The notes under the pieces are model-generated. The model was not told where the DNA came from and ran no database searches. It saw only the letters and a list, made by a program, of their open reading frames with translations. Source: a bacterium (lineage in GTDB: Bacteria; Patescibacteriota; Minisyncoccia; Phycocordibacterales; UBA1550). Taken from it: a stretch of DNA of 64,000 nucleotides. Position numbers and translations under genes: made by a program. The stretch covers positions 9,317 to 73,316 of the forward strand of contig JAUSES010000013.1 of the NCBI GenBank assembly GCA_030649835.1, read 5' to 3'. Within the stretch, counting starts at the first letter, position 1. Each line of letters starts with the position of its first letter. Of the stretch, positions 626 through 58,387 are shown piece by piece.

Positions 626-650
626 CGTTTACGATTTATTAAATAAAAAA

Positions 651-1727: not shown

Positions 1728-1955
1728 AACAAAGTCTAATGTTAAATTTCAAATTTTTAAATTACCTTGAATTACGAAACTACCATATTTCGTCTTTTGA
1801 ATCAGCAGATTCACGTCTTGGACGAAGACCTTCAGAAGCAATCCAGGACTTATAGATTGCTTCGTCAGAGTACTTCCTCGCAAAGACAGGAAACCAGGGT
1901 TTTGTAATTCAAAGTTTACAAAATTGGAAATTAAACATTTAAAATTATAACTACC

Positions 1956-3152: not shown

Positions 3153-3158
3153 CGCGAG

Positions 3159-3200
3159 ATAGATAGGATATAGAATTTAGGATTTAGAATATAGAAGGGG
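3159..3200. repeat. AT-rich tandem heptamer array (GRATWTA units). It is the left arm of a nested palindrome.
   Basis: atagata|ggatata|gaattta|ggattta|gaatata|gaagggg. The downstream array at 3241..3284 is its approximate reverse complement. Confidence 0.6.
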
Positions 3201-3232
3201 AAGGATTGCCTTCGGCAATCCTTCCCCTGTTT
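3201..3232 (+). terminator. GC-rich hairpin (14-bp stem, TTCG loop) after pilC. Probable terminator or attenuator.
   Basis: ggggaaggattgcc ttcg ggcaatccttcccc is a perfect stem. It is followed by tgtttg, a weak U tract. Confidence 0.5.
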
Positions 3233-3240
3233 GAATCACG

Positions 3241-3284
3241 TATTATCCTAAATTCTAAATCCTATATTCTACCTTCTTCCCCGT
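3241..3284. repeat. AT-rich tandem heptamer array (ANNTYCT units, …cctatattctacc). It is the right arm of the nested palindrome.
   Basis: tatcct|aaattct|aaatcct|atattct|accttct. Same family as the arrays at 5745, 7048, 45900 and 55876. Confidence 0.6.
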
Positions 3285-3446
3285 TATCCACACCCCCCTC
3301 ACCAAACTATTGCATTAAAAATACTATAGGTGGTATAATATCCAAGTGTGGGAGAGAGGGCGGCGATATGGCCATGCCGCTCTCTCTCACAAAAATGAAT
3401 TTAAAGAATTTACATTATCAAGTTAATTACTCGTTTTAAAAATAAT

Positions 3447-3941
3447 ATGAAAAATAAAGGTTTTACACTTATCGAACTCTTGGTGGTTATCGCAATCATC
3501 GGTATCCTCGCATCTGTTGTTCTCGCATCGCTCAACAGCGCTCGTGCAAAGGGTGCGGATGCAGCGGTTAAGGCAAGTTTGGCCAATGCTCGCGCTCAAG
3601 CAGAGCTTCTTTATGACACACCAGGCTGTTATACAACTGCTGGTGGGACATGTCTTGCTGCTGGATTCCCCAAGGCAACATGTACCTACGCTACAGCAAA
3701 CACACTCTTCAATGATACAAAAATATCACAACAGATTGCTGCTGCTATAGCTGCAACAAACGGGCTCTCATCCTGTATGGAAGCAGCAAATGATACAGCC
3801 TGGGCAACCGCGGTACAGTTAAAAGTTAACCCTCTAACCGCATGGTGCGTGGACAGTACCGGCGCCTCAAAGCAAGTAACAATGGCAACGAATGATCAAG
3901 CAGGTATTGACCTAATGATTGGAGCATCAGTTTGTATTTAA
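3447..3941 (+). CDS. Type IV major pilin (PilA-like prepilin).
   Basis: MKNKG|FTLIELLVVIAIIGILA is a class III signal: short leader, F+1, E+5, hydrophobic helix. Cys pairs lie in the C-terminal region. An upstream TGGTATAAT -10 at about 3330 is followed by a roughly 100-nt leader with a hairpin. Confidence 0.8.
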   Translation: MKNKGFTLIELLVVIAIIGILASVVLASLNSARAKGADAAVKASLANARAQAELLYDTPGCYTTAGGTCLAAGFPKATCTYATANTLFNDTKISQQIAAAIAATNGLSSCMEAANDTAWATAVQLKVNPLTAWCVDSTGASKQVTMATNDQAGIDLMIGASVCI

Positions 3942-4007
3942 TTCGTAGAAAGTGAATAGAAAGGGGAAACGGTATCAGGTACCCTTTCCAAACAAAACAC
4001 TCGCCAT

Positions 4008-4068
4008 CCAGCGGGTGTTTTGTTTTGCTCGCCCCGCGCTACTCCTACCGAGGTTAAACCTCGGTGGA
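4008..4068 (+). repeat. REP-like element, copy 1. It contains the palindromic hairpin CGAGGTTAAACCTCG.
   Basis: A 61-nt segment (ccagcgggtgttttg…ctcctaccgaggttaaacctcggtgga) is near-identical to 4818..4880. It lies directly upstream of the RAYT gene. Confidence 0.7.
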
Positions 4069-4095
4069 GACGCGTGTTTGTGCTACTATGAATGT

Positions 4096-4767
4096 ATGTC
4101 ACGAAATATAGATTTCTCTATCAACGAGTATTACCATCTTTATAACCGCGGTGTAGATAAACGCACAGTGTTTATGGATGCTGAGGATTACAAGAGATTC
4201 ACCGCGCTACTTTATCTTGCCAATAATACAAACAGCGTACACATGAATAATTTAAACCACCGAGGTTTAACCTCGCTGGACGTACTTTCGATCGAGAAGG
4301 GAGACACTCTTGTTGATATTGGGGCATATTGTTTGATGCCAAATCATTTCCATGTTCTCGTGCGAGAAAAAATTGAGAGTGGGATCAGTATATTTATGCA
4401 AAAAGTAATGACAGGATACACGATGTACTTTAATAAAAAATACAAAAGAACGGGAGCGCTTTTTGGTGGCACCTTTAAAGCACAGCATGTTGCTCGTGAC
4501 ACGTATCTAAAATATCTTTTTGCGTATATTCATTTGAACCCAATCAAACTTGTAGATTCGAACTGGAAGGAAAATGGTATCTCTGATAAAAAGAAGGCTG
4601 AGAGGTATCTGAATTCTTATCTGTATTCGAGTTACCTCGACTTTAAAGGAACAGACCGAGAAGAAAAGTCGATTTTGAACAAAGATGCATTTCCACAATA
4701 TTTTAGTACCAATGTTGAATTTCGCAGTTTTGTATCTTGGTGGCTAAATTTTAAGGACGAAAAATAG
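4096..4767 (+). CDS. REP-associated tyrosine transposase (RAYT) / IS200-like Y1 (HuH) transposase.
   Basis: The HuH motif CLMPNHFHVLV and the downstream YIHLNPIK/…Y region are typical of the IS200/IS605 TnpA / RAYT family. The in-frame ATG at 4096 gives about 223 aa. The listed ORF from 3952 would run through the REP element. Confidence 0.65.
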   Translation: MSRNIDFSINEYYHLYNRGVDKRTVFMDAEDYKRFTALLYLANNTNSVHMNNLNHRGLTSLDVLSIEKGDTLVDIGAYCLMPNHFHVLVREKIESGISIFMQKVMTGYTMYFNKKYKRTGALFGGTFKAQHVARDTYLKYLFAYIHLNPIKLVDSNWKENGISDKKKAERYLNSYLYSSYLDFKGTDREEKSILNKDAFPQYFSTNVEFRSFVSWWLNFKDEK

Positions 4768-4782
4768 GCGAACGCTTACCTT

Positions 4783-4803
4783 CAGTGAGGTTAAACCTCA
4801 CTG
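4783..4803. repeat. Perfect 21-bp palindrome cagtgaggttaaacctcactg (REP-like hairpin variant).
   Basis: Read directly. It shares the GAGGTTAAACCTC core with the flanking REP copies. Confidence 0.7.
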
Positions 4804-4817
4804 AAAACCTCGGTGAA

Positions 4818-4880
4818 CCAGCGGGTGTTTTGGTTTACTCGTACCGCTCGCCACTCCTACCGAGGTTAAACCTCGGTGGA
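4818..4880 (+). repeat. REP-like element, copy 2 (direct repeat of 4008..4068).
   Basis: ccagcgggtgttttggtttactcgtaccgctcgccactcctaccgaggttaaacctcggtgga. Confidence 0.7.
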
Positions 4881-4935
4881 AACATTCTGGAGGTTTTTTA
4901 AGAGATTTTTGTGATTGGCATGGTAGAATATTCAT

Positions 4936-5742
4936 ATGGATTTCTTAATGCTCGTCAATGTTTTTATTTTTGGGACTATTGTGGGGAGCTTTTTGAATGT
5001 GGTTGTCTATCGTTACAATAGTGGCAGATCCCCACTCACCGGCCGGTCGCAGTGTTTCTCGTGCGGAAAAACACTATCATGGTATGAGCTTGTCCCCGTT
5101 TTTAGCTTCCTTGTGCAGGGTGGGAGATGCCGAAAATGTAAAACAAAACTATCGTGGCAGTATCCGTTAGTTGAAGTACTTTCAGGAATTATTTTTGTTT
5201 CAGTTTTTATGCAGAGTAAGTCCATGGTGGAGACAGCACTTCTCCTTTCTGTTTTTTCAACACTCCTTGTCATTGCAGTGTATGATTTACGGCACCAAAT
5301 CATTCCCGACGGGCTCGCTATACTTTTTGCAGTGCTCGGACTCGCTCAGTTTTTCATTTTAGTTGATATTTCTCGGGCATTTCAGTTTCCTCACGTGTGG
5401 ACGCTCATTGCGGGGCCGATGCTTTTTCTACCATTTTGGTTACTATGGTTTGTGTCTCAGGGGAGATGGATTGGGCTCGGGGACGGTAAGCTTGCGTGGG
5501 GAATAGGCTGGTTTCTTGGAGCAGCACTCGGTGGCTCAGCGGTAATACTCGCGTTTTGGATAGGGGCGGCGTATGCACTTTGCATCATGACAGTGCAGAA
5601 ATTTTTTACCAAAACAAAGGATAAATTATCTCTAAAAAGCGAAATCCCCTTCGGCCCATTCCTCATTTTAGCCACAATTATTGTATACTTTACAGGAGTG
5701 AATTTTTTTGACGGCTCGGTCAACCTTCTCACCTTTTTATGA
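4936..5742 (+). CDS. pilD: Prepilin peptidase PilD (A24 family).
   Basis: N-terminal tetra-Cys zinc motif (CFSCGKTL … CRKCKTKL) and a polytopic membrane domain with conserved Asp-containing segments (…VYDLRHQIIPDGL… and …GLGDGKLAWG…). TGGTAGAAT lies 6 nt upstream of the ATG. Confidence 0.8.
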   Translation: MDFLMLVNVFIFGTIVGSFLNVVVYRYNSGRSPLTGRSQCFSCGKTLSWYELVPVFSFLVQGGRCRKCKTKLSWQYPLVEVLSGIIFVSVFMQSKSMVETALLLSVFSTLLVIAVYDLRHQIIPDGLAILFAVLGLAQFFILVDISRAFQFPHVWTLIAGPMLFLPFWLLWFVSQGRWIGLGDGKLAWGIGWFLGAALGGSAVILAFWIGAAYALCIMTVQKFFTKTKDKLSLKSEIPFGPFLILATIIVYFTGVNFFDGSVNLLTFL

Positions 5743-6323
5743 AAATTCTCCATTCTCCATTCTCCATTCCCCATTCTGCCCTTCAGGGTTTTACCCTTGT
5801 CGAACTTCTTGTATCAATCGGTATTTTTACGATCATGACTGGTGTTGTTCTTGCAAATTATCGCACCTACAATACGAATGCTAATTTCGCAAACTCTTCG
5901 GAAGATATTGTTTTAGCCCTTCGTCAAGCACAGGTATATGGGGTGAGTGTAAAAGGTGAGAGCTCCTCGTTTAACATACCTTATGGTGTTTCGTTTGACA
6001 TATCTTCTACTGGTAAACCAAACCAAATAATTCTGTTTGCAGATAAAGATAGTGATGGAATATATGCACCAGCGAGTGACTCTATTGTGCAGACAATCAC
6101 ATGGCAAAGCCCCATTGGTATTACGGCACTTGAGTGCGGAAGCGTGCCATGCACCGGCGGTGTACTTAATGTAACGTTCAAGCGTCCCAATCCCGATGCG
6201 CGCATTACTCAAGGGGCGACAGTAGACGACTCTGTGCAGATTGCTAAAATCACCGTTGGAAATGGTGGCACAAAGACGAGCACCATAACGATTTCCAAGG
6301 CTGGGCAAATCTCTATTCAATGA
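5739..6323 (+). CDS. Pseudopilin / minor type IV pilin with a long leader.
   Basis: MKILHSPFSIPHSALQG|FTLVELLVSIGIFTIM has the class III signal with F+1 and E+5. The 17-aa leader is encoded by (ATTCTCC)3-ATTCCCC-ATTCTGC heptamer repeats. The ATGA overlaps the pilD stop. Confidence 0.7.
   Translation: MKILHSPFSIPHSALQGFTLVELLVSIGIFTIMTGVVLANYRTYNTNANFANSSEDIVLALRQAQVYGVSVKGESSSFNIPYGVSFDISSTGKPNQIILFADKDSDGIYAPASDSIVQTITWQSPIGITALECGSVPCTGGVLNVTFKRPNPDARITQGATVDDSVQIAKITVGNGGTKTSTITISKAGQISIQ
5745..5779 (+). repeat. Tandem heptanucleotide repeat (ATTCTCC)x3 + ATTCCCC + ATTCTGC inside the first codons of the pseudopilin gene.
   Basis: Read directly. Period 7 is not a multiple of 3. Confidence 0.8.
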
Positions 6324-6941: not shown

Positions 6942-6977
6942 GGAATAGAGAATGGAGAATAGGGGATGGTGAATGGA
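6942..6977. repeat. Tandem heptamers GAATRGN x5 (complement orientation of the CCATTCY family).
   Basis: gaataga|gaatgga|gaatagg|ggatggt|gaatgg. Confidence 0.6.
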
Positions 6978-7018
6978 CGAAAGAACAGAAAATATGAAAT
7001 ACAAAATATTAAAAATAG

Positions 7019-7082
7019 GAATGGAGAATGGAGAATGGAGAATAAAAATTCCCCATTCCCCATTCCCCATTCCCCATTCTAC
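7019..7082. repeat. Inverted heptamer arrays (GAATGGA)x3-GAATAAA | (ATTCCCC)x4-ATTCTAC. They form a long imperfect palindrome centred near 7046, inside the pseudopilin leader-coding region.
   Basis: Read directly. The two halves are approximate reverse complements. Confidence 0.75.
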
Positions 7083-11025: not shown

Positions 11026-11319
11026 ATGACGATTGAAATTAAAGATGTTGAACACCTTGCGGGCCTTGCGCGTATTGCTGTTTCTGAGGAGGAAAAAAAG
11101 ATACTTCAGCATGATTTGGAGGAGATTTTGGCATATGTGTCACAGATTAAAGAAGTCGAAGGTCAAAAGTCAAAAGTCAAAAGTGGGGAGCTTCGCAATG
11201 TGATGCGCGAGGATAGTGAGCCGCACGAAGCGGGAATTTTTACTGAGGATATTTTGAAGCAAGCACCAGCACGTGAAGGGAACCGCATTTCAGTAAAAAA
11301 GATACTGGGAAACAGTTGA
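11026..11319 (+). CDS. gatC: Glu-tRNA(Gln)/Asp-tRNA(Asn) amidotransferase subunit C.
   Basis: The 97 aa protein MTIEIKDVEHLAGLARIAVSEEEKKILQHDLEEILAYVSQI matches GatC. A tRNA-Gln gene at 24713..24781 is consistent with use of the transamidation route. Confidence 0.8.
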   Translation: MTIEIKDVEHLAGLARIAVSEEEKKILQHDLEEILAYVSQIKEVEGQKSKVKSGELRNVMREDSEPHEAGIFTEDILKQAPAREGNRISVKKILGNS

Positions 11320-14499: not shown

Positions 14500-14571
14500 G
14501 CCGGTGTAGTTCAATGGTCAGAACGAGGGACTCATAAGCCCTAGACAGTGGTTCGATTCCACTCATCGGCA
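14500..14571 (+). tRNA. tRNA-Met (anticodon CAT; elongator Met or lysidine-modified tRNA-Ile2).
   Basis: 7-bp acceptor stem gccggtg/catcggc with a G1:C72 pair. Anticodon loop cUCAUAa, T-loop TTCGATT, discriminator A. CCA is not encoded. Confidence 0.75.
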
Positions 14572-14575
14572 CAAA

Positions 14576-14625
14576 CAGTAGAAAGTGCGCCCTCGTGAGG
14601 GAGCACTTTCTACGGTTTGTGTCTT
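14576..14625 (+). terminator. Long hairpin following tRNA-Met (gtagaaagtgc…gcactttctac with inner ccctc/gaggg).
   Basis: Read directly. It is followed by ggtttgtg. Confidence 0.45.
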
Positions 14626-14692: not shown

Positions 14693-14713
14693 GGCGATTC
14701 CACTCATCGGCAC
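14693..14713 (+). repeat. Direct repeat of the tRNA-Met 3' end (gattccactcatcggcac), about 140 bp downstream of the gene.
   Basis: 18-19 nt are identical to 14554..14572. An inverted T-arm-like fragment (gtgaatcgaacc) lies at 14627..14638. Confidence 0.75.
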
Positions 14714-14782
14714 CCGCAGTTTGTTTAGCGGACTGTTTCCTGTTAGAATGCGCAAGGGTTATTTTAGTTGAATTTATGTAAT

Positions 14783-14856
14783 GCGGTCGTAGCTCAGCTG
14801 GTTAGAGCGCCCGCCTGTCACGCGGGAGGTCGTGGGTTCAAGTCCCATCGACCGCG
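14783..14856 (+). tRNA. tRNA-Asp (anticodon GTC).
   Basis: Acceptor stem gcggtcg/cgaccgc. Anticodon loop cUGUCAc. D-loop agctcagctggttagagc. Discriminator G. Confidence 0.85.
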
Positions 14857-14857
14857 C

Positions 14858-14897
14858 AAATACAAAAGATACCTAGTGCTACTGCACTAGGTATCTT
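14858..14897 (+). terminator. Rho-independent-type terminator hairpin after tRNA-Asp.
   Basis: acaaaagatacctagtgc tac tgcactaggtatcttttgtattc. Confidence 0.6.
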
Positions 14898-15026: not shown

Positions 15027-15055
15027 CCAAGTCCCATCGACCGCGCAAATACAAA
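15027..15055 (+). repeat. Exact 29-nt direct repeat of the tRNA-Asp 3' end plus trailer (caagtcccatcgaccgcgcaaatacaaaa).
   Basis: Identical to 14839..14867. It is followed by a second, different terminator hairpin (15052..15091, aaaatgagtccaacgc…gtgttggactcatttt). Confidence 0.85.
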
Positions 15056-15143
15056 ATGAGTCCAACGCAGAAGTGTTGGACTCATTTTGTTTAATGATTG
15101 AAAGAATGAGCTAAATAGTGTATTGTGTCGTGGTGTTGAATAA

Positions 15144-15170
15144 GCCGATGTAGCTGTTTTGGTAGGCAAG
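15144..15170 (+). repeat. Truncated 5' pseudo-copy of tRNA-Thr(GGT) (gccgatgtagctg…ggtagg), about 65 bp upstream of the intact gene.
   Basis: Compared by eye with 15211 onward. The same taag upstream context is present. Confidence 0.55.
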
Positions 15171-15210
15171 CAGGGGTACTGCGATAGTCTATATCTTGAA
15201 AATAATATAA

Positions 15211-15286
15211 GCCGATGTAGCTCAGTTGGTAGAGTGCGTCCTTGGTAAGGACGAGGTCTCCGGTTCAATCCCGGACATCGGCTCCA
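15211..15286 (+). tRNA. tRNA-Thr (anticodon GGT).
   Basis: Acceptor stem gccgatg/catcggc. Anticodon stem cgtcc/ggacg with loop tUGGUAa. T-loop TTCAATC. Discriminator T. CCA is encoded. Confidence 0.85.
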
Positions 15287-15458: not shown

Positions 15459-15553
15459 TGATAGTTGAAAGCCTGTAAAGTCCTTAAGGTCAAAAAGTGA
15501 ATGCATTTTTGCAATCACTTTTGACTTTACACTTTGGACTTTTGACTGTTTGT

Positions 15554-22409: not shown

Positions 22410-22423
22410 TTATGAAAAAACTT

Positions 22424-22900
22424 CAAAACAATTATGCGTTTATAGATAGCCAAAATGTAAATTTGAGTATTCAGTCAATTGGATGAAGACTTGACTTCGC
22501 TCGTTTTCGAATATATCTTGCAGAAAAATATGGTGTCACGAAAGCGTTCCTATTTGTTGGTTATATCGAAGGAAACAATGATCTCTATATCGCGTTGCAA
22601 GGAATGGGGTATCTTTGTGTTTTCAAACCGACACTAACATACAAAGATGGCACAACAAAAGGGAACTGCGACGCAGAACTTGTTTTGCAGGCAATGATCG
22701 AATATGAAAACTATGACGCAACAGTTATTGTTACGGGGGATGGTGATTTCTATTGCCTTGTGAAATATCTATTAGAGAAAAATAAATTAAAAAGAGTTTT
22801 AGTTCCCAATATTTTAAAATACTCTGCACTCCTTAAAAGATTTGGAGGTAAACACCTTAGTTTTATGAATAACTTAAGGACTCTCTTGGAGCGTAAATAA
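22424..22900 (+). pseudogene. NYN/LabA-like domain gene interrupted by an in-frame TGA (at 22484..22486) at a position where Trp is expected.
   Basis: In a single frame the sequence reads MKKLQNNYAFIDSQNVNLSIQSIG*RLDFARFRIYLAEKYG…TGDGDFYCLV. The TGDGDF motif is typical of the NYN domain. TGA is a genuine stop elsewhere in the window. Confidence 0.55.
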
Positions 22901-22945
22901 AAAGTCCCCCGTAGGGACAGAACCCTACGGGGGACTTTTCGTGGT
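22901..22945 (+). terminator. Strong Rho-independent-type terminator hairpin.
   Basis: aaaagtcccccgtaggg acagaa ccctacgggggactttt. Confidence 0.7.
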
Positions 22946-37842: not shown

Positions 37843-40719
37843 ATGATTTCTTTACGTAATTTTGCCCTGACACTGCTTGTTTTTCTCTTGCCTTTTTCAT
37901 TGACGAATGTTGCTTCTGCGCAAGTGGCAAGTCTTCCATCTGGGACAAGGGTAGATTATCCGGTGGGGGACGGGCCTATTGGTATTGCATTTGATAACAT
38001 AACAAACTCGGTATGGGTAACAAATGCCTACACTAGCACCCTTAGTAAGGTGAATATTTTTGATGGTACCAGAATTGACTATGTTGCTGGAATAAATCCG
38101 CGTGGTATCGCTTTTGACGGTGTTACAAATTCTGTATGGGTGGCAAATTCTGGCTCTAATACTGTTAGCAAGGTAAACATTTACACAGGCATAAAAACTG
38201 ATTATCCGGTCGCAATAGAGCCATTTGATATTGCTTTCGATAATGTTACAAACTCGGTTTGGGTTACAACTGGTGGTACCACAGGGATAATTAGTAAAGT
38301 AGACATTTTTACTGGCGCAAGGGTTGATTTTTATAATTGGTATTATCCGCGAGGTGTTGTCTTTGATAGTGTTACAAATTCTATATGGACAGGAAATTAT
38401 TATGCAGCTATTAGTAAGATAAATATATTTAATGGAACAAGAATAGATTATCCAACAGGATTAGGCAAGGAACAGATGTATGGAATTGCTTTTGATAACT
38501 TTAATAATTCCATCTGGGCAGGGATATCTTCTGCAAGCGTAATTACCAAAGTAAATGTTTTTACCGGAGAAATGACTGAGTATGTTGTTAAAGCAGCTCC
38601 ATATGGCGCCATTTTTGACAACACCACTAATTCAATATGGGTAACAAGTTATTCATTTAATACTGTTAGTAAAATAGATGTTCTAACTGGTACAAGAGTT
38701 GATTATCCAGTAGGCGGAGAGCCCTACGATATCGTTTTTGATAGTGTGACAGATTCTGTATGGGTAACAAATGTTGCCTCCAGCACTATTAGTAAAATAG
38801 CAATTGGAGCACCTCCTCAACATTTGCCCACTCTTTCTACCCTCGTACAACTTAAGTCAGATGGAGTAATGTCAATTGCAGAAGGTAGCGTTACGACTGA
38901 ATCAACCGCGGTTTTTAAGGCAACTCTTTCAGACGTAGATAATGATGTAGCTAAACTTCAAGTAGAATTAAAAGAATTAAGCCAACAGTTTGATGGAACA
39001 AATCTTTTGGAAAGTGGTTTTGTAGCATCAGGGAGCACTGCAACAACATCAAAAGAAATAATTGCCGACGGACAGTATCACTGGCGCGCACGCGCGGTAG
39101 ACGACAATGGAAATATGAGCGATTGGCAGGAGTTTGGTGCTTTTGGGAATATGGATTTTAAGGTGAAGACCGTCCCGCTGTATACGCAGAGACTATCAGA
39201 GTTTCCTTCAAGGACAGCGACTGAAGGTTGGGCAGGATTAGATTATGCAGCTGGGTCCGCCGGTAATTATAGCTGTGGTTCCACTATTGCTGGATGTGGT
39301 TGCGCCATCTCTTCATCTGTAATGATTATGCGCTTTCATGATATTACGGTGGCTGTTGATGGTCTTGAAGTAGAACCTAAAAATATAAATAATTGGCTCA
39401 ATACACATAATGGATACGACAACGGAAATGTTAATTGGAAAAAGGTCTCTGAATATTCTAAAAATCTAAATGGTCTTGCACGATTACAATTTGACAAAAT
39501 AATTCGTTTTAGAGATACGGTTACTCTTGATCAATATCTTGAGACTGGTCGACCTGCTATTCTTTATAGCAAAACCTTCGGTTCCCATTTTTTAGTGGCT
39601 GATGGCAAGCTTGCCAACACCTATACTATCAAAGACCCAGCTCGATATAATACAAAGAACCTTAACGACACAAGGATCGGTTCTTTTATTAAAAATTATA
39701 ACAATAATTTTGACGGCCTTCGATTGTATTCCCCTGTTCTTACTGCTATGAAGGGAATGTCGTTCAGCCTGGGTTCTCCCGCAGAACTTTTAATTATAGA
39801 CCCACTTGGCCGCAGATTAGGGAAAGACCCCACAACAGGGATTCTCTACGAGGAGATTCCAGAAGGTTCGTATTATCAAGAGGGGATAAGCAACGCCGAG
39901 CTAGAAAACCCCCCGCAAGCACACGAAAATAAGAATATTTGGATCCCCAATCCAGAAGTAGGGCAATACATAACGAAAGTTATCGGTACGGATACAGGGT
40001 CATACACCCTTAATTCCTTAGCCTATGACTATAACGGAGATTCTCATTCTCAAACATTGACCGCAACAACGCAACCTGCTTTTGTTGATGAATATCATCT
40101 CAGTGTGTCAACAGTAGGTCAACCGATAAACCTTGACCTCGCGCTCACCTCACAAGGGATTGATGAATGCCCCACTTTGAGTGGTACCAGCCTCGGCTGT
40201 CCTGCAAAGATTGATTTTTTGAGTATGGAAAAGATTAGTAATTCTGCAGGAGCGCCAGAGCTAATCAGTCCTCTCGGAGAAACTCGTTATACCGCCCCAG
40301 TGGTTTCAGGGGAACGGGGCACGACCGAGGTCAAAGCAAAGCTTTATGATGAGGGCAAACTTCTTGCTCTTTTGAATACGCGTTCAGTGTCATCTGACCA
40401 GCTTTGCGCAATTTTTGACGACACCTCAAAAGATAGTGCGTTACTCAATCACCTAACTAAAACAACAGATAAAGACGGCAAATTCTCTTTTGGTGTTTCA
40501 TCTACAACAGTTTCCCCTACGCTGATAGAAAGCGTTAGGGAAACTGTCGCGGGGCAATCAAAAAGAGTTTGTATCGCAGAATCAGTTTCCCCGCGAGATT
40601 TTGTTAACGGCATTGCTTCAAAAGAGGTAAGTATGATTACGCTTACTGTCAGAAATACAAACAACGGTATTTTGGTCAAAAAGACCGCGGGAAGTAACTC
40701 GCAAACGATAGACTACTAA
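37843..40719 (+). CDS. Secreted beta-propeller repeat protein (NHL/YVTN-like repeats x8) with an Ig/Fn3-like region and a C-terminal papain-like (peptidase C39-like) domain.
   Basis: Signal peptide. A roughly 40-aa repeat (GIAFDxVTNSVWVxNxxxxTVSKxNIxTG). Later NYSCGSTIAGCGCAIS (Cys) … GSHFLVADG (His) is typical of the C39-like fold. Confidence 0.5.
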   Translation: MISLRNFALTLLVFLLPFSLTNVASAQVASLPSGTRVDYPVGDGPIGIAFDNITNSVWVTNAYTSTLSKVNIFDGTRIDYVAGINPRGIAFDGVTNSVWVANSGSNTVSKVNIYTGIKTDYPVAIEPFDIAFDNVTNSVWVTTGGTTGIISKVDIFTGARVDFYNWYYPRGVVFDSVTNSIWTGNYYAAISKINIFNGTRIDYPTGLGKEQMYGIAFDNFNNSIWAGISSASVITKVNVFTGEMTEYVVKAAPYGAIFDNTTNSIWVTSYSFNTVSKIDVLTGTRVDYPVGGEPYDIVFDSVTDSVWVTNVASSTISKIAIGAPPQHLPTLSTLVQLKSDGVMSIAEGSVTTESTAVFKATLSDVDNDVAKLQVELKELSQQFDGTNLLESGFVASGSTATTSKEIIADGQYHWRARAVDDNGNMSDWQEFGAFGNMDFKVKTVPLYTQRLSEFPSRTATEGWAGLDYAAGSAGNYSCGSTIAGCGCAISSSVMIMRFHDITVAVDGLEVEPKNINNWLNTHNGYDNGNVNWKKVSEYSKNLNGLARLQFDKIIRFRDTVTLDQYLETGRPAILYSKTFGSHFLVADGKLANTYTIKDPARYNTKNLNDTRIGSFIKNYNNNFDGLRLYSPVLTAMKGMSFSLGSPAELLIIDPLGRRLGKDPTTGILYEEIPEGSYYQEGISNAELENPPQAHENKNIWIPNPEVGQYITKVIGTDTGSYTLNSLAYDYNGDSHSQTLTATTQPAFVDEYHLSVSTVGQPINLDLALTSQGIDECPTLSGTSLGCPAKIDFLSMEKISNSAGAPELISPLGETRYTAPVVSGERGTTEVKAKLYDEGKLLALLNTRSVSSDQLCAIFDDTSKDSALLNHLTKTTDKDGKFSFGVSSTTVSPTLIESVRETVAGQSKRVCIAESVSPRDFVNGIASKEVSMITLTVRNTNNGILVKKTAGSNSQTIDY

Positions 40720-45893: not shown

Positions 45894-45899
45894 AGGGGG

Positions 45900-45934
45900 T
45901 AGAATGTAGAATTTAGAATATTGAATATAGAATG
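45900..45934 (+). repeat. Tandem heptamer array TAGAATG-TAGAATT-TAGAATA-TTGAATA-TAGAATG running into the ATG at 45932.
   Basis: Read directly. The units resemble -10 boxes (TAGAAT). It is the complement orientation of the ATTCTAA arrays. Confidence 0.75.
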
Positions 45935-55076: not shown

Positions 55077-55514
55077 ATGAAAATACATGAATTGGGTCAC
55101 ATAGTGCTGTATGTGACCGACATCAAAAAGATGGCGGATTTTTATCGTGATACTCTCGGCTTCCACGAGATTGCACGACGAGAAGGCATGGCGATTTTTT
55201 CTTCTGGGCGCACACACCACGAGATGCTTCTTATTGAGGTTGGTGGCGAGCCACGCAAGCACAGAGTAGAGCCGGGGCTGTATCATATTGGTTTTAAAGT
55301 TGGCGACAGCACTGCGGAGCTTCGCGAAGTGTACAAGCACTTGAAAAAAGAAGGCGTGAAAATTCTCGGTACCACCGACCACGGCGTGACGCACAGCATT
55401 TACATTCTTGACCCAGACGGCAACGAGCTGGAGCTCTACGCGGACGTTTCCGACTCGTGGAAAAAAGACCCAAACGCAATCCTCTCAATGCCGAAGCTTC
55501 TCGATTTGGAATAA
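55077..55514 (+). CDS. VOC/glyoxalase-family protein.
   Basis: MKIHELGHIVLYVTDIKKMADFYRDTLGF… is a paired βαβββ module pattern. His/Glu metal ligands are present. Confidence 0.6.
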   Translation: MKIHELGHIVLYVTDIKKMADFYRDTLGFHEIARREGMAIFSSGRTHHEMLLIEVGGEPRKHRVEPGLYHIGFKVGDSTAELREVYKHLKKEGVKILGTTDHGVTHSIYILDPDGNELELYADVSDSWKKDPNAILSMPKLLDLE

Positions 55515-55566
55515 GAAAAAAGCTATACAAAATTTGTATAGCTTTTTGGATTATTTGTGGGAGGGA

Positions 55567-55719
55567 TTAAAAACCCCCACGCTGGTAGCATTTCCACGCT
55601 TCCTCTGGATTTTCCCTTGCCCATTTTCTATCACGTAGTGCACTTCTAGTGCGTAAGAACAGCAAAACTAGAAGTATAGGTAATGTAATAGTAAGAAGTC
55701 CAATATGGTATTCGTTCAT
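55567..55719 (-). CDS. Unlisted small (50 aa) membrane protein.
   Basis: An AGGAGG RBS lies 8 nt upstream of the ATG. MNEYHIGLLTITLPILLVLLFLRTRSALRDRKWARENPEEAWKCYQRGGF. It falls below the ORF-track cutoff. Confidence 0.35.
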   Translation of the reverse strand: MNEYHIGLLTITLPILLVLLFLRTRSALRDRKWARENPEEAWKCYQRGGF

Positions 55720-55875
55720 TTATATTTCCCCTCCTAATAGCATTTTGCGTGCAAAATTACACTCTCATATTATAACAAAAGTTAGAAAATTGTCAATAAT
55801 TCTGGAGGAGTAAAACCTCCATCAGGGATATACAAACGGTAGGTTTCTGGAACATTTGTTGATACAATGTACCCG

Positions 55876-55913
55876 ATATTCCATATTCTAAATTCTAATT
55901 CCTATATTCTACC
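55876..55913 (+). repeat. Tandem heptamer array ATATTCC-ATATTCT-AAATTCT-AATTCCT-ATATTCTACC.
   Basis: Near-identical to the 3'-arm array at 3254..3278. It lies 4 nt upstream of the duplicated helicase start. Confidence 0.7.
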
Positions 55914-55914
55914 A

Positions 55915-55971
55915 ATTATGACCCAAGATGAAGCATTTGAAATTTTGAAGACGGGGAGGAACGTCTTTGTG
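55915..55971 (+). repeat. 57-nt duplicate (2 mismatches) of the first 18 codons plus 3 upstream nt of the helicase gene at 56717.
   Basis: attATGacccaagatgaagcatttgaaattttgaagacGgggaggaaCgtctttgtg compared with 56714..56770. It forms a truncated ORF (55867..56055). Confidence 0.85.
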
Positions 55972-56126
55972 TTAGGTTTTAAGTCGCTGTTATGTCGCGT
56001 GTGGATAACTCAGGCAACAATGTGTTGCAATTCCTTCGACAGTAGTATATATTAGATACATACACGCCCCAGCCAGCCGAAAGGCCCGCTGGGGTTTTTA
56101 GGTCTTTATTGCTACAATAACAAGCA

Positions 56127-56705
56127 ATGGAAACCATTTTACTTATAGACGGTGAGAATTTTAAAGGCAAGATGAAAGCCGTATTTTATAATGCAGGGAA
56201 AGATAAACCAACCTGGCACAAATATAATTTTAGTGGATTATTTGAAAAAGTTTTGGATGGTTATTTTATTGAGCGAAAGGTTTTTTATTTTGCGCGCATA
56301 AAAGAACACGAAGACAGTAAAGAAAAATCAAAGCAACTTGTCCAAGATCAGCGACTTCTCAAAACTCACCTTGAACGTCAAGGTTTTGAAGTCATCTTGA
56401 GCGGTAGAGTCCGCGGACAAATGGAAGATGGCACAAACGGAAAGAAAGTACTTGTTTTTAAAGAAAAAGGGGTTGACGTAAAAATTGCCGTTGACATGGT
56501 AAGTATCGCTTGCGACAAAAAAGCAAAGGAGATTATTTTAGGCAGTTCTGATTCCGATTTACAACCAGCAATTCAAGAAGTTAAAGACAGAAAAGTTCGT
56601 TGTCTCTATTTAGGTTTTGAAGCGCAACCAAACAAAGGAATTTCGTACACGACAGACCGCACTATTTTGATTCGTGATGCAGAGGTGTTTGAGTATGCAA
56701 AATAA
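56127..56705 (+). CDS. NYN/LabA-like domain protein (predicted RNase-fold).
   Basis: LLIDGENF…KGVDVKIAVDMVSIA…ILGSSDSDLQPAI matches the NYN pattern of conserved Asp residues. Confidence 0.65.
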   Translation: METILLIDGENFKGKMKAVFYNAGKDKPTWHKYNFSGLFEKVLDGYFIERKVFYFARIKEHEDSKEKSKQLVQDQRLLKTHLERQGFEVILSGRVRGQMEDGTNGKKVLVFKEKGVDVKIAVDMVSIACDKKAKEIILGSSDSDLQPAIQEVKDRKVRCLYLGFEAQPNKGISYTTDRTILIRDAEVFEYAK

Positions 56706-56716
56706 TTTTTACTATT

Positions 56717-58387
56717 ATGACCCAAGATGAAGCATTTGAAATTTTGAAGACAGGGAGGAATGTCTTTGTGACGGGACCTGCGGGGAGCGGGAAGACACAT
56801 CTCGTCAATCGCTATATTGCATACCTTCGCGAACATGCGATTGATATGGGTATTACCGCATCCACTGGCATCGCTGCGACCCACATGGGCGGGGTGACTA
56901 TTCACTCATGGGCGGGGATTGGCATTGCAGCAAGCCTCACTCCATACGAACTCGAGGCAATGCTTGAAAAAAGCTATCTCTATAAGAGGTTTGAAAAAGT
57001 GAAGGTGCTCATCATAGACGAGGTTTCAATGCTCCACCATTTTCGCCTAGATCTCGTGAACAATGTTTTGAAAACAATGAAGCACTCCGAGAAACCTTTT
57101 GGGGGGATTCAGGTCGTACTCTGTGGGGATTTTTTCCAACTTCCGCCGGTGTCACGCATGGGTGAGCCTGAAACACATTTTATATACAAGAGTGATGCAT
57201 GGCGTGAGGGCGGCTTTACTATTTGCTATCTGTCGGAACAATTTCGCCAAGAGGATGATGTAACGATTTCTATTTTAAACGAGATTCGCTCGGGGGAGGT
57301 TTCTGATGGCGCCCGCGAGCATCTCCGCTCACGCTATCAAGTGCGTTCGCCAAAATTTATAACTTCAACTAAACTTTTTACGCACAATGCCGACGTGGAT
57401 ACTCTCAACGATACAGAGCTCGGGCGAATTGACGAGGGTGAAATTGTGACCTACCTGATGGAGAGTCGTGGCAAAGAAGCGATCGCTGCAACGCTCAAAA
57501 AATCCTGCCTCGCCCCCGAAACGCTCCGTTTGAAAGTGGGTGCACGCGTGATGTGCGTAAAGAATAACTTTGAAGCGGGTTATGTGAACGGTACTCTCGG
57601 TGTGGTGGTGTCGTGCGATGAAATGGACGACCCCATTATTAAAACAGCATCAGGGAAAAGAATTGTTATTCCCCGTGCTTCGTGGAAAATAGAAGAAGAT
57701 GGCAAAGTAAAAGCGGAAATTTTGCAGTACCCGCTTCGGCTTGCATGGGCCATCACGGTGCACAAGAGTCAGGGGATGAGCTTGGATGCGGTGGAAGTGG
57801 ATCTATCAAAATCCTTTGAACCCGGCATGGGGTACGTGGCGCTCTCTCGCGTGCGCTCACTTGAGGGCCTCACTATTTTAGGAATGAACGAAAATGCGCT
57901 CCGTGTTCACGAAGAAGTGCGAGAGCTTGATCAGGATTTTCAAAATCTTTCTAAAGAAGCCCTTGGGGAAATAAAAAAAATGGGCGAGAAGGAGATTGCT
58001 CGCTTGCAAGCTGAATTTCTTGCGTGCTCAAAGCCACCACAAAAAGAAAAGAAGCTCGCTACACACAAAGAGACCGAGCTACTCCTCGCGGAGAAGAAAA
58101 GTCTAGGTGAAATTGCAGAAGCGCGTGGCATGACAATTGAAACGATAGTCTCCCATATTGAGAAGCTTATGGAAGAGGAATCGCGCGTGGATATGAGACA
58201 TTTAAAATATGAAATTTCGCCTGCGCATTTTTTGAAAATTGAAAAGGCAATTGAAAAACTTTTGGAAGATAAGAAAGTTATACTACTTACACCAGTCAAA
58301 AACATTGTTGGGCCTAATGTGTCGTTTCTTCATATCCGCCTCGCCCGCGCGCTTTTGGGACACACGCCGAAGAACGAGGGAAAGTAG
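56717..58387 (+). CDS. Pif1/RecD2-like SF1 helicase with a C-terminal helical/HTH extension.
   Basis: Walker A TGPAGSGKTHLV, Walker B LIIDEVSML, and motifs QLPPV, VHKSQG, ALSRV are Pif1/RecD-family hallmarks. Confidence 0.75.
   Translation: MTQDEAFEILKTGRNVFVTGPAGSGKTHLVNRYIAYLREHAIDMGITASTGIAATHMGGVTIHSWAGIGIAASLTPYELEAMLEKSYLYKRFEKVKVLIIDEVSMLHHFRLDLVNNVLKTMKHSEKPFGGIQVVLCGDFFQLPPVSRMGEPETHFIYKSDAWREGGFTICYLSEQFRQEDDVTISILNEIRSGEVSDGAREHLRSRYQVRSPKFITSTKLFTHNADVDTLNDTELGRIDEGEIVTYLMESRGKEAIAATLKKSCLAPETLRLKVGARVMCVKNNFEAGYVNGTLGVVVSCDEMDDPIIKTASGKRIVIPRASWKIEEDGKVKAEILQYPLRLAWAITVHKSQGMSLDAVEVDLSKSFEPGMGYVALSRVRSLEGLTILGMNENALRVHEEVRELDQDFQNLSKEALGEIKKMGEKEIARLQAEFLACSKPPQKEKKLATHKETELLLAEKKSLGEIAEARGMTIETIVSHIEKLMEEESRVDMRHLKYEISPAHFLKIEKAIEKLLEDKKVILLTPVKNIVGPNVSFLHIRLARALLGHTPKNEGK

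What the first reader, a model, noticed from the sequence alone, without database searches (positions are those of the whole stretch)
55867..58387. NYN-domain gene inserted as a cassette at the 5' end of a Pif1-like helicase gene, flanked by a 57-nt duplication of the helicase start
The first 18 codons of the helicase (MTQDEAFEILKTGRNVFV) plus 3 upstream nt occur twice, at 55915–55971 and 56714–56770, with 2 mismatches. The upstream copy forms a truncated ORF preceded by a heptamer array. Between the copies lies an intact NYN/LabA-like gene (56127–56705).
This points to recombinational insertion of the NYN gene into the helicase 5' region, or to a cassette system that swaps genes in front of the helicase.
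NYN (predicted RNase fold) plus a Pif1/RecD-family helicase with a C-terminal HTH-like extension is a nuclease–helicase pairing. Such pairings are typical of phage-defence modules, though I do not recognise this one as a named system. A second, pseudogenised NYN gene lies in the 22.4-kb islet.
Basis: partly seen in the sequence, partly recalled or inferred. Interest (0 to 1): 0.65.

Follow-up and report, generated by a model that had tools for sequence, protein, structure and literature searches.

The report
Mobile small-RNA plus NYN nuclease cassette
A 0.74-kb self-contained cassette (a tiny hairpin RNA gene plus a NYN nuclease gene) that turns up at unrelated places in many ultra-small (CPR) bacteria has landed at the start of an ordinary Pif1 helicase gene, duplicating its first 57 bases; the nuclease and the helicase are neighbours by accident, not a defence pair.

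Summary
The 57 nt at 55915-55971 and 56714-56770 differ at 2 positions (blastn E 1e-21). They bracket an intact NYN gene, and the helicase behind copy B is full length.

The proposed nuclease-helicase pairing is not supported. The helicase is a conserved, syntenic Pif1-family gene. Seven related locus types have it without NYN. Among 128 loci carrying the cassette head, only this window has a Pif1 helicase next to it.

The insert is one compact unit:
- a DnaA-box-like 9-mer;
- a sigma-70 promoter;
- a ~40-nt hairpin/terminator RNA;
- an extended -10 promoter;
- a leaderless NYN ORF that ends at the unit's right edge.

This unit occurs, apparently once per genome, at unrelated loci across Paceibacteria and other CPR lineages.

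In 19 of 55 evaluable non-redundant loci it is bracketed by locus-specific direct repeats of 28-196 nt that cover the end of a neighbouring gene. Same-spacing control windows gave 0 of 72.

So the duplication is a recurrent insertion scar that keeps the neighbouring gene intact. The unit has no terminal inverted repeats, no fixed duplication length and no known transposase.

How it inserts is unresolved: host recombination of the insertion-duplication type, or a nuclease-driven staggered insertion. I found no description of this cassette.

The parts
55876..55911 (.). Period-7 tandem array (ATATTCY-like) upstream of repeat copy A. It is a genome-wide intergenic feature, not part of the cassette.
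   Evidence: Tandem Repeats Finder. Similar arrays lie at 3163-3196, 3245-3271, 5745-5777, 6943-7079, 45899-45934 and elsewhere.
55903..55908 (+). Inferred -10 box (TATATT) of the resident helicase promoter. The predicted transcription start, 7 nt downstream, is 55915, the first base of copy A.
   Evidence: Read from the sequence. Relatives have a TGnTAnAnT box 7-9 nt before the helicase ATG. This is an inference; no transcript data are available.
55915..55971 (+). Repeat copy A: 3 nt plus helicase codons 1-18. It is a dead stub.
55867..56055 (+). 62-aa stub ORF. The helicase N-terminus (from ATG 55918) runs into unrelated codons.
   Evidence: No Pfam match.
55972..55995 (.). Filler of unknown origin between copy A and the conserved left end of the cassette.
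   Evidence: Not shared with other cassette copies.
56000..56008 (-). DnaA-box-like 9-mer TTATCCACA. It marks the conserved left edge of the cassette.
   Evidence: A match with at most 1 mismatch is present in 42 of 88 units, against 2 of 88 and 2 of 55 control regions, in either orientation. Similarity between cassette copies starts here.
56025..56053 (+). Promoter P1 (TTGCAA-17 nt-TATATT) that drives the small RNA.
   Evidence: A -35/-10 pair is conserved at this position in all loci.
56060..56099 (+). ~40-nt small RNA: 5' AUACACG tail, hairpin 56066-56095 with a GAAA loop, then a U-run (intrinsic terminator).
   Evidence: Fold of -32.4 kcal/mol, z -5. In 29 sequences, 93% of cells are paired, two pairs carry compensatory changes, and the covariation score exceeds all 500 shuffles. 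No Rfam family matches.
56110..56118 (+). Extended -10 promoter P2 (TGCTACAAT), 8 nt before the NYN ATG, which implies a leaderless NYN mRNA.
   Evidence: TGnTAnAAT is conserved at a fixed distance from the ATG in 23 loci. This is an inference.
56127..56705 (+). NYN (LabA-like) nuclease gene, 192 aa. Its stop codon is the conserved right edge of the cassette.
   Evidence: Pfam NYN. Residues D8, E10, N11, D117, D123 and S140-D144 are invariant. Similarity to other copies ends at the stop codon.
56706..56713 (.). 8-nt spacer (TTTTTACT) between the NYN stop codon and copy B.
56714..56770 (+). Repeat copy B: the functional start of the helicase gene.
56717..58387 (+). Intact Pif1-family helicase with a C-terminal HTH_40 domain (556 aa). 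It is a resident, syntenically conserved gene and not part of the cassette.
   Evidence: Pfam. Solved Pif1 structures match at E 2e-73. Relatives are 555-556 aa with the same neighbours.

Best explanation
The region 55972-56713 is a foreign, self-contained cassette inserted between the promoter-proximal 57 nt and the body of a resident Pif1-family helicase gene.

**What the cassette contains**
- a DnaA-box-like 9-mer;
- a promoter that makes a ~40-nt hairpin RNA ending in its own terminator;
- a second, extended -10 promoter;
- a leaderless NYN (PIN-like) nuclease gene that runs to the cassette's right edge.

**What is shown**
- The same unit is spread across Paceibacteria and other CPR bacteria at unrelated loci, one copy per genome where this can be judged.
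- About a third of copies are bracketed by a locus-specific duplication of 28-196 nt of the adjoining gene end.
- The duplication is therefore the recurrent scar of how this cassette integrates.
- In this window the scar leaves one complete helicase ORF (copy B onwards).

**What is inferred for this locus**
- The helicase is now read through from the NYN promoter.
- A dead 18-codon stub (copy A) is still driven by the old helicase promoter, and its transcripts are stopped by the cassette's terminator hairpin.
- The NYN-helicase adjacency is accidental.

**What is inferred about mechanism**
- The cassette is a selfish or accessory RNase module. Its abundant small RNA is the nuclease's partner, either an antitoxin-like inhibitor or a regulator. 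The layout recalls type III toxin-antitoxin loci.
- It most likely spreads as DNA between related cells. These genomes encode type IV pilus genes.
- It most likely integrates by host recombination of the insertion-duplication type. A donor fragment or circle that already carries the cassette next to the homologous gene end crosses over once with the resident copy. This duplicates the short shared segment.
For: **The cassette is an insertion here.**
- Helicase loci of seven related types lack it.
- The helicase is a bona fide Pif1.

**It is one conserved unit.**
- DNA similarity to other loci starts at the DnaA-like box and ends at the NYN stop codon.
- The box, P1, the hairpin, P2 and the ATG are conserved in 30 loci that were retrieved through the protein alone.
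- The hairpin shows covariation.
- The box is enriched: 42 of 88 units against 2 of 88 controls.

**It moves.**
- Copies 85-96% identical lie in unrelated flanks. L035 and L037 are 95% identical with both flanks unrelated.
- Cassettes are more alike than their shared flanks: 95-97% against 83-84%.
- The whole family is a tight clade. 1990 clusters at 90% identity correspond to only 44 representatives at 50% identity with E<=1e-30.

**The scar is recurrent.**
- 19 of 55 loci have bracketing direct repeats, against 0 of 72 same-spacing controls and 2 of 55 in inverted orientation.
- The repeats cover gene ends, and one copy always lies in an intact ORF.

**Evidence favouring host recombination over a transposase.**
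- No terminal inverted repeats; filler at the junctions; variable repeat length.
- One locus per genome in 32 genomes.
- No excess of short (8-20 nt) flanking repeats in loci that lack a long one.
- Differences between repeat copies are biased to third codon positions: 40 of 72 overall, and 8 of 9 in the four youngest pairs.
- In this window the two differences form one compensatory base pair.
- L016 and L113 share cassette plus spacer at 96-97% identity, joined to orthologous genes that are only 83% identical, at the same position. Only L113 has the duplication.
- Single crossover of a circular molecule carrying truncated homology is documented to give 109-950 bp flanking duplications (PMC3240628).
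Against: - No donor genome with the cassette directly upstream of a helicase start was found.
- The primary, non-homologous insertions that placed the cassette at so many loci remain unexplained.
- Most duplications are short (28-69 nt), near the lower limit for RecA-type recombination. Longer homology would recombine better, so survivorship has to be invoked.
- In L113, copy B is of the resident type right up to the junction. That requires a crossover at the very edge of the shared segment.
- The codon-position bias rests on few sites (rough p of 0.01-0.04, against my own estimate of 45% third positions expected if the two copies simply drifted apart after a duplication).
- L021 needs an extra internal deletion under any model.
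- The role of the small RNA is untested. The same RNA head precedes other cargo in about 10% of loci. That argues against a NYN-specific antitoxin.
- There is no expression, toxicity or nuclease data of any kind.
Confidence: 0.6

Rival explanations
1. The cassette is an autonomous mobile element of a new kind. The NYN (PIN-like) nuclease, perhaps guided or regulated by the hairpin RNA and helped by DnaA bound at the left-end box, makes uncoupled staggered nicks 28-196 nt apart in the target. Fill-in synthesis then creates long target-site duplications of variable length.
For: - It carries a single protein, and the ORF reaches the element's edge as in insertion sequences.
- It has a conserved left-end motif.
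- Bracketing duplications occur in 35% of loci against 0 of 72 controls. Their identities form a continuum from 80% to 99.5%, as expected for scars of different ages.
- One process would explain both new-locus insertions and the duplications.
- In L037 the duplication abuts the conserved left end with no filler.
- The catalytic residues are invariant.
- A DnaA box inside a transposon end has a precedent in IS50/Tn5 (from my own knowledge, not checked here).
Against: - One copy per genome.
- No terminal repeats; filler at many junctions; the right boundary sometimes carries a flank along, as in L035/L037.
- No short duplications.
- The differences between repeat copies are biased to third codon positions.
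- No PIN/NYN-family transposase is known. NYN proteins are otherwise predicted RNases (PMC5499597).
- The RNA head also occurs with non-NYN cargo.
- It is absent from viral contigs and from known phage and plasmid collections.
Confidence: 0.2
2. The duplication arose by replication template switching or break-induced repair. A nascent strand left the helicase region, copied the cassette from another DNA molecule, and re-annealed 57 nt behind its point of departure. The cassette plays no active part.
For: - The duplication length varies, there is filler DNA at the junctions, and no end motifs are present.
- Transformation-associated formation of duplications has been reported in pneumococcus (PMC3784515).
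Against: - It does not explain why this particular 0.7-kb unit is recurrently involved (19 of 55 against 0 of 72 controls).
- It does not explain the sharp conserved ends at the box and the stop codon.
- Microhomology at the junctions cannot be assessed without the donor sequences.
Confidence: 0.1
3. One reading: NYN and the Pif1-like helicase form a functional nuclease-helicase module (anti-phage defence), or the helicase 5' end is a docking site where cassettes are swapped.
For: - The two genes are 12 nt apart on the same strand, with no terminator between them.
- There are weak PADLOC matches: HEC-09 and NYN for the nuclease, RecD-like models for the helicase.
Against: - The helicase and its synteny are conserved without NYN in all seven related locus types examined.
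- Only 1 of 128 loci with the cassette head has an adjacent Pif1.
- None of the helicase relatives fetched carries any cassette at that position.
- The PADLOC hits are partial and domain-level only.
Confidence: 0.04
4. The duplication is a metagenome assembly artefact, such as a strain bubble that was linearised.
For: - The window comes from a metagenome-assembled genome.
- Contig ends are mildly enriched near the cassette (7 observed against 3.2 expected for contigs of at least 4 kb).
Against: - The two copies differ at 2 positions, and the repeat length does not match a k-mer.
- The same kind of structure, with 80-99% identity and lengths of 28-196 nt, recurs in 19 loci from different studies and assemblers.
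- The 194-nt case is reproduced in four independent records, L009, L010, L070 and L125.
Confidence: 0.02

Closest known systems
Type III toxin-antitoxin loci (ToxIN, AbiEi-less AbiQ/antiQ type)
   Same: - It is a compact two-part module. A short non-coding RNA gene with its own promoter and an intrinsic terminator lies directly upstream of an endoribonuclease-type gene.
- Its distribution is accessory and horizontally mobile.
   Different: - The RNA is a single hairpin, not a tandem array of repeats.
- The nuclease has a NYN/PIN-like fold, not the ToxN/AbiQ fold.
- The nuclease has its own promoter rather than depending on terminator read-through.
- The RNA head also precedes other cargo.
- Toxicity and neutralisation are untested.
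LabA-like NYN proteins (Pfam PF01936, COG1432; structure 2qip)
   Same: - The Pfam match is above threshold, and the acidic catalytic residues are conserved.
- It is a stand-alone protein of about 190 aa.
   Different: - It is a narrow, very tight subfamily confined mainly to CPR bacteria.
- It is tied to a conserved upstream small RNA and to flanking duplications.
- No function is established for bacterial members of the family (PMC5499597).
Campbell-type insertion-duplication / homology-facilitated illegitimate recombination
   Same: - Foreign DNA is flanked by a direct duplication of a short stretch of resident sequence of variable length.
- One junction is illegitimate and carries filler.
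- Duplications of 109-950 bp were obtained this way in E. coli (PMC3240628).
   Different: - Here the structure recurs in nature with one specific cassette at many different loci.
- The duplications are shorter (28-196 nt).
- No donor configuration was found for this locus.
Insertion sequences, casposons and CRISPR spacer integration (elements that make target-site duplications)
   Same: - A small unit with a single ORF that reaches its edge.
- It is flanked by direct repeats of target sequence.
   Different: - The repeats are 28-196 nt and variable, not a fixed few to about 30 nt.
- It has no terminal inverted repeats.
- It encodes no DDE, HUH, Ser, Tyr or Cas1 enzyme.
- It is single copy per genome.
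Bacterial Pif1-family helicases (e.g. Bacteroides Pif1, PDB 5fhd/5ftb)
   Same: - The helicase at 56717-58387 has the PIF1 core and the 2B domain. It matches solved Pif1 structures at E 1e-60 to 1e-73.
   Different: - It carries a C-terminal HTH_40 extension. This architecture is shared by the 120 closest homologues listed, so it is ordinary for this lineage.

Membership tests
NYN / LabA-like nuclease (PF01936) | Profile match above the curated threshold | tested here: met
   53 bits against a cutoff of 24.2, E 7e-14, residues 4-169.
NYN / LabA-like nuclease (PF01936) | Conserved acidic residues for metal binding | tested here: met
   D8, E10, N11, D117, D123, D142 and D144 are invariant in 35 homologues. 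The requirement for four acidic residues is taken from PMC5499597.
NYN / LabA-like nuclease (PF01936) | PIN-like alpha/beta fold resembling 2qip | tested here: inconclusive
NYN / LabA-like nuclease (PF01936) | Nuclease activity | not testable with these tools
   This needs biochemistry.
Pif1-family SF1B helicase | PIF1 core, 2B domain, Walker A motif, similarity to solved Pif1 structures | tested here: met
   PF05970 at E 4e-37 and PF21530 at E 4e-10. GPAGSGKT lies at residues 20-27. PDB 7otj matches at E 2e-73.
Known anti-phage defence system (PADLOC models) | Full-length matches to the component models of one system | tested here: not met
   The NYN protein matches HEC-09 at 35.6 bits and the NYN model at 30 bits, both partial. 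The helicase matches only generic RecD-like models.
Known anti-phage defence system (PADLOC models) | Conserved co-occurrence of the two genes | tested here: not met
   Only 1 of 128 loci with the cassette head has an adjacent Pif1. Helicase relatives lack NYN.
Type III toxin-antitoxin | Antitoxin RNA made of tandem direct repeats | tested here: not met
   The RNA is a single 40-nt hairpin. No tandem repeat lies in 55972-56126.
Type III toxin-antitoxin | Terminator between the RNA gene and the nuclease gene | tested here: met
   Hairpin plus U-run at 56066-56099, conserved in all loci.
Type III toxin-antitoxin | Toxin of the ToxN/AbiQ family; toxicity neutralised by the RNA | tested here: not met
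   The fold family is NYN. Toxicity and neutralisation cannot be tested here.
Insertion sequence / DNA transposon | Terminal inverted repeats or other defined ends | tested here: not met
   There are no inverted repeats at the unit's ends. The ends are conserved at the box and the stop codon, but with variable filler.
Insertion sequence / DNA transposon | Target-site duplication of fixed length | tested here: not met
   The repeats range from 28 to 196 nt. Short repeats are not enriched.
Insertion sequence / DNA transposon | Transposase of a known class; several copies per genome | tested here: not met
   The only protein is a NYN domain. There are 33 loci from 32 genomes, the extra one being a gene split across two contigs. 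The window holds one copy.
Campbell-type insertion-duplication | Insert flanked by direct copies of resident sequence, one copy continuous with the intact gene | tested here: met
Campbell-type insertion-duplication | The two copies derive from two alleles (donor and recipient) | tested here: inconclusive
   There is a third-position bias (40 of 72 overall; 8 of 9 in the youngest pairs). In this window the two differences form a compensatory pair. The numbers are small.
Campbell-type insertion-duplication | A donor exists with the cassette next to the same gene | tested here: inconclusive
   None was found for the helicase. L016 shows such a configuration for the L113 locus.

The most novel reading that the evidence does not exclude
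The hairpin-RNA plus NYN unit is an autonomous mobile element of a previously unknown class. In this reading a PIN-like (NYN) nuclease is the mobility enzyme, and it produces long target-site duplications of variable length (28-196 nt).
Probability: 0.2. Interest if true: 0.85.

Novelty: new variant of a known kind. Interest (0 to 1): 0.6.

Why it matters
- **Annotation.** The apparent NYN-Pif1 operon is an accident of insertion. It should not be catalogued as a defence pair.
- **A possibly undescribed cassette.** The cassette itself appears to be undescribed. A ~40-nt RNA that is more than 90% conserved across CPR lineages is coupled to an unusually conserved NYN nuclease. The unit is insulated by its own terminator, moves between genomes, and leaves long duplications of neighbouring gene ends. 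My literature searches and Rfam found no account of it.
- **If integration is by host recombination.** The scars would give a direct, countable read-out of DNA exchange in uncultivated, genome-reduced bacteria.
- **If the nuclease itself drives insertion.** It would add a new enzyme class to the known mobility enzymes.
- **Function of the family.** Either way it offers a concrete, testable handle (RNA plus nuclease) on bacterial LabA-like NYN proteins, whose function has remained unknown (PMC5499597).

Tried and rejected
- **Second hairpin over the NYN start codon.** It is predicted in this window, but RNAalifold finds no conserved pairs across 23 loci. Dropped.
- **Helicase-like sequence upstream of other close cassette copies.** Local alignments scored no better than shuffles. 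The flanks are unrelated, and the TTTAGG resemblance at the junction is chance.
- **Circular contigs carrying the cassette.** None has terminal overlaps.
- **Contig breaks at the cassette as a sign of several copies.** The enrichment is weak (29 against 25.6 expected overall; 7 against 3.2 for contigs of at least 4 kb).
- **Short target duplications in loci without a long repeat.** Not enriched once known cases are set aside.
- **Motifs at the inferred cut sites and junctions.** None is apparent.
- **Carriage on phages or plasmids.**
  - No relative or hairpin in IMG/VR.
  - None in the GenBank phage collection.
  - One 28%-identity LabA hit in PLSDB.
- **Structure-based neighbours of NYN.** Foldseek against the PDB was uninformative. 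No PDB sequence hit. Two libraries were unavailable.
- **Rfam.** Nothing significant over 55400-56900. The whole window yields only tRNAs.
- **Clean empty site.** The closest relatives share the VOC-helicase-ATPase order. They lack the 370 nt (small minus-strand ORF and intergenic DNA) that precede copy A here. So the exact pre-insertion sequence could not be recovered.
- **Helicase allele with the ACG/AAC state of copy A.** None was found among the six related loci compared.
- **L086.** This was an indexing artefact and is excluded from the counts.


Full report

Yes. The sequence read-out, the repeat finder and a self-BLAST agree. Positions 55915-55971 and 56714-56770 share 57 nt with 2 mismatches (E 1.4e-21), 799 nt apart. 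A weak extension takes the pair to 66 nt.

The repeat covers 3 nt upstream plus the first 18 codons of a 556-aa ORF (56717-58387). Copy A sits in a 62-aa stub ORF. Between the copies lies an intact 192-aa ORF that matches Pfam NYN (E 7e-14). The long ORF matches PIF1, the Pif1 2B domain and HTH_40, and solved Pif1 structures at E 2e-73.

The heptamer array at 55876-55911 is real, but it is one of about ten period-7 arrays in intergenic regions of the window. The second NYN gene is at 22413-22901 with an in-frame TGA. In a scan of the whole window, this is the only high-identity direct repeat that brackets a gene.

**2. Whose genome, and is the helicase special?**

The closest homologues of all three proteins searched are from Paceibacteria/Yonathbacteria-type CPR bacteria.

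The helicase is a conserved chromosomal gene. Relatives 83-88% identical are 555-556 aa long and have the same architecture. Most are followed by the same P-type ATPase gene. None has a NYN gene upstream (L001-L008, L144-L147). In L144 even the upstream VOC/glyoxalase gene is the same, and the helicase ATG follows it after 40 nt.

In the relatives a TGnTAnAnT box lies 7-9 nt before the ATG, so the helicase mRNA is probably leaderless. In the window the corresponding -10 box (TATATT, 55903-55908) precedes copy A, not copy B.

**3. What is the insert?**

DNA similarity between the window and other NYN loci begins at about 55996-56000 and ends at the NYN stop codon. In 30 loci retrieved through the protein alone, the region upstream of NYN has the same anatomy:

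- A TTATCCACA-like 9-mer, in either orientation. A match with at most 1 mismatch occurs in 42 of 88 units, against 2 of 88 and 2 of 55 control regions.
- A -35/-10 promoter. In the window it is TTGCAA-17 nt-TATATT, 56025-56053.
- The sequence CAUACACG followed by a hairpin with a GNRA loop and a U-run.
- An extended -10 box (TGnTAnAAT) at a fixed 7-10 nt before the NYN ATG.

The hairpin folds at -32 kcal/mol, z -5. In the 29 distinct sequences from protein-retrieved loci:

- 93% of cells are paired;
- two stem positions carry compensatory changes (C-G to U-A in 6 sequences, A-U to G-C in 4);
- the covariation score exceeds all 500 shuffles;
- shifted registers collapse.

No Rfam family matches.

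I therefore read the unit as a strongly promoted ~40-nt RNA gene that doubles as a terminator, followed by a leaderless NYN gene. This reading is inferred from sequence; there is no transcript evidence.

The NYN protein keeps all the acidic residues expected of an active site. Its family is narrow and tight. 1990 clusters at 90% identity match at E<=1e-5, and the 120 best are all at least 72% identical. Yet only 44 representatives at 50% identity reach E<=1e-30 among 1.8 billion proteins.

**4. Is the unit mobile?**

- Copies 85-87% identical at the DNA level lie in wholly different neighbourhoods.
- L035 and L037 carry units 95% identical with both flanks unrelated.
- Where two genomes share the insertion site, the unit is much more alike than the flank. 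It is 96-97% against 83% in L016/L113, and 95% against 84% in L012/L086.
- An exact-pattern scan of metagenomes for the hairpin returned 96 further loci. In most of them NYN follows within about 65 nt.
- In roughly a tenth the same RNA head precedes other small genes: HicB-like, RelB-like, DUF3800 or HIT. In L053 the NYN gene is interrupted by an IS200-type transposase.
- Each of 32 genomes contributed one locus.
- The unit was not found in viral contigs, phage records or plasmids, apart from one 28% hit.

**5. The flanking duplication is a property of the unit.**

I compared the 1 kb upstream of the unit with the 1 kb downstream in every non-redundant locus that had a full NYN gene and at least 300 nt on both sides.

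- 19 of 55 loci have a significant direct repeat of 28-196 nt at 80-99.5% identity.
- 0 of 72 control window pairs with the same spacing have one, and 2 of 55 do in inverted orientation (L086 is an artefact and is excluded).
- In 11 loci the geometry is tight, as in the window. Copy A ends 60-190 nt before the hairpin, a few to about 45 nt left of the box. Copy B starts 12-103 nt after the end of the NYN alignment.
- The repeated sequences differ in every locus.
- They cover the 5' start of the downstream gene (the window and L113), or the 3' end of a flanking gene (L021, L038, L089, L096, L106, L027, L028, L118 and others).
- One copy is always continuous with an intact ORF.
- The 194-nt case is reproduced in four independent records. 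This, together with the mismatches, rules out an assembly artefact.
- Loci without a long repeat show no excess of short (8-20 nt) repeats.
- No terminal inverted repeats or cut-site motifs are visible, and many junctions carry filler.

**6. Consequences at this locus (inferred).**

Transcripts from the old helicase promoter now cover the 18-codon stub. They should stop at the cassette hairpin, or possibly earlier at a terminator-like stem formed by the end of copy A plus the T-rich filler.

The intact helicase begins 12 nt after the NYN stop codon with no terminator in between. It is therefore probably expressed by read-through from the NYN promoter. The two genes form an accidental operon.

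**7. How did it get in?**

Three mechanisms fit the anatomy.

(a) *Host recombination of the insertion-duplication type.* A donor fragment or circle carries the cassette next to a homologous gene end. It crosses over once with the resident copy, and the other junction is illegitimate.

- In favour: one copy per genome, fuzzy junctions, and no short duplications.
- In favour: differences between the copies are biased to third codon positions. By codon position they are 19/13/40 overall, and 8 of 9 fall at third positions in the four youngest pairs.
- In favour: in the window the two differences are the two sides of one base pair. That is what two functional alleles would show.
- In favour: L016 and L113 share cassette plus spacer joined at the same point to diverged orthologues.
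- In favour: the mechanism is documented experimentally (PMC3240628; see also PMC3784515).
- Against: no donor was found for this locus.
- Against: the duplications are short.
- Against: copy B of L113 is of the resident type up to the junction.
- Against: the primary non-homologous insertions are left unexplained.

(b) *An element-encoded reaction.* The NYN nuclease makes uncoupled staggered nicks. This explains new loci and scars with a single process, and it fits the continuum of repeat identities. However, it has no precedent, and it fits the single-copy state and the fuzzy ends poorly.

(c) *Replication template switching.*

I put these at roughly 0.4, 0.2-0.25 and 0.1 given that the insertion itself is real. 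L021 needs an additional internal deletion in copy B under every model.

**8. What does the cassette do?**

This is unknown. My best guess is a selfish or accessory RNase module whose abundant small RNA partners the nuclease. The layout (RNA gene, terminator, nuclease gene) resembles type III toxin-antitoxin loci. It fails their defining features, though: the RNA is not a tandem-repeat array and the nuclease does not have the ToxN fold.

The occurrence of the RNA head with other cargo suggests an alternative. The head may be a portable promoter-terminator 'insulator', or a shared recombination handle, rather than a NYN-specific antitoxin.

Bacterial LabA-like NYN proteins have no established function (PMC5499597). 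Literature searches found nothing on this cassette.

**9. Verdict.**

- The insertion reading is supported.
- The defence-pair reading is not supported.
- The helicase is ordinary.
- The interest lies in the cassette, which appears undescribed: a CPR-wide, horizontally moving small-RNA plus NYN unit with recurrent long insertion scars.

Noticed in passing
window 22413-22901 (+): A second NYN-domain gene of another subfamily, with one in-frame TGA at 22485-22487 where relatives would have Trp. It has no hairpin-RNA head upstream. It may be a pseudogene, a sequencing error or a recoded codon.
   Followed up: partly
window 3163-3196, 3245-3271, 5745-5777, 6943-7079, 11153-11184, 15517-15552, 45899-45934, 55876-55911; also L016 upstream of its cassette: Tandem arrays of 7-nt units (ATTCTAN / GAATNNA types, 3-5 copies) recur in intergenic regions. 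Some flank terminator hairpins as inverted pairs. Similar arrays occur in another Paceibacteria genome. Their function is unknown.
   Followed up: partly
window 3284-3395 (+): The second of only three perfect TTATCCACA sites in the window precedes a near-consensus promoter (TTGCAT-17 nt-TGGTATAAT). A long 5' hairpin follows, upstream of a pilin gene (3447-3941). The box-plus-promoter arrangement of the cassette may therefore be a general strong-promoter design in this lineage.
   Followed up: partly
window 14554-14579 / 14695-14720; 14839-14867 / 15028-15056; 15140-15165 / 15207-15232: Partial duplicates of tRNA gene ends (tRNA-Met 3' end, tRNA-Asp 3' end at 29 nt and 100% identity, tRNA-Thr 5' end) lie 67-189 nt from the genes. 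They look like scars of small insertions or integrations in the tRNA cluster.
   Followed up: no
window 55567-55719 (-) with promoter 55796-55769: A 50-aa membrane-type ORF with a perfect consensus promoter (TTGACA-16 nt-TATAAT with TG). It lies in about 370 nt that are absent between the VOC gene and the helicase in relative L144. This is a second, separate difference at this locus.
   Followed up: no
window 55954/55963 versus 56753/56762: The only two differences between the repeat copies are the two sides of the loop-closing pair of a local stem: G-C in copy A, A-T in copy B. Copy B has the state seen in most relatives. With the T-rich filler, copy A forms a terminator-like element.
   Followed up: partly
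L063, L065/L068, L083, L091, L101, L139: The same box-promoter-hairpin head precedes other cargo instead of NYN: a HicB-like antitoxin, DUF3800, a RelB-like protein, an unknown 110-aa protein, a HIT hydrolase and an unknown 157-aa protein. L139 also has a 30-nt flanking duplication.
   Followed up: partly
L053:1074-1505: An IS200/IS605-type Y1 transposase gene is inserted into the 5' part of a NYN cassette.
   Followed up: no
L016/L113, L012/L086, L048/L115: Where two genomes share the insertion site, the cassette is far more similar (95-97%) than the adjoining orthologous gene (83-93%). This suggests recent exchange or homogenisation of cassettes between lineages.
   Followed up: partly
window 37934-38795 (+): Six or more diverged 123-nt (41-aa) repeats lie inside the 958-aa ORF 37843-40719, within a lower-GC stretch (about 29-43 kb) of very large genes.
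   Followed up: no
window 212-5742: A type IV pilus gene cluster: response regulator, PilB/T-like ATPase, PilC-like protein and several prepilin-like genes whose starts are rich in heptamer repeats. This is relevant to DNA uptake as a route for cassette spread.
   Followed up: partly
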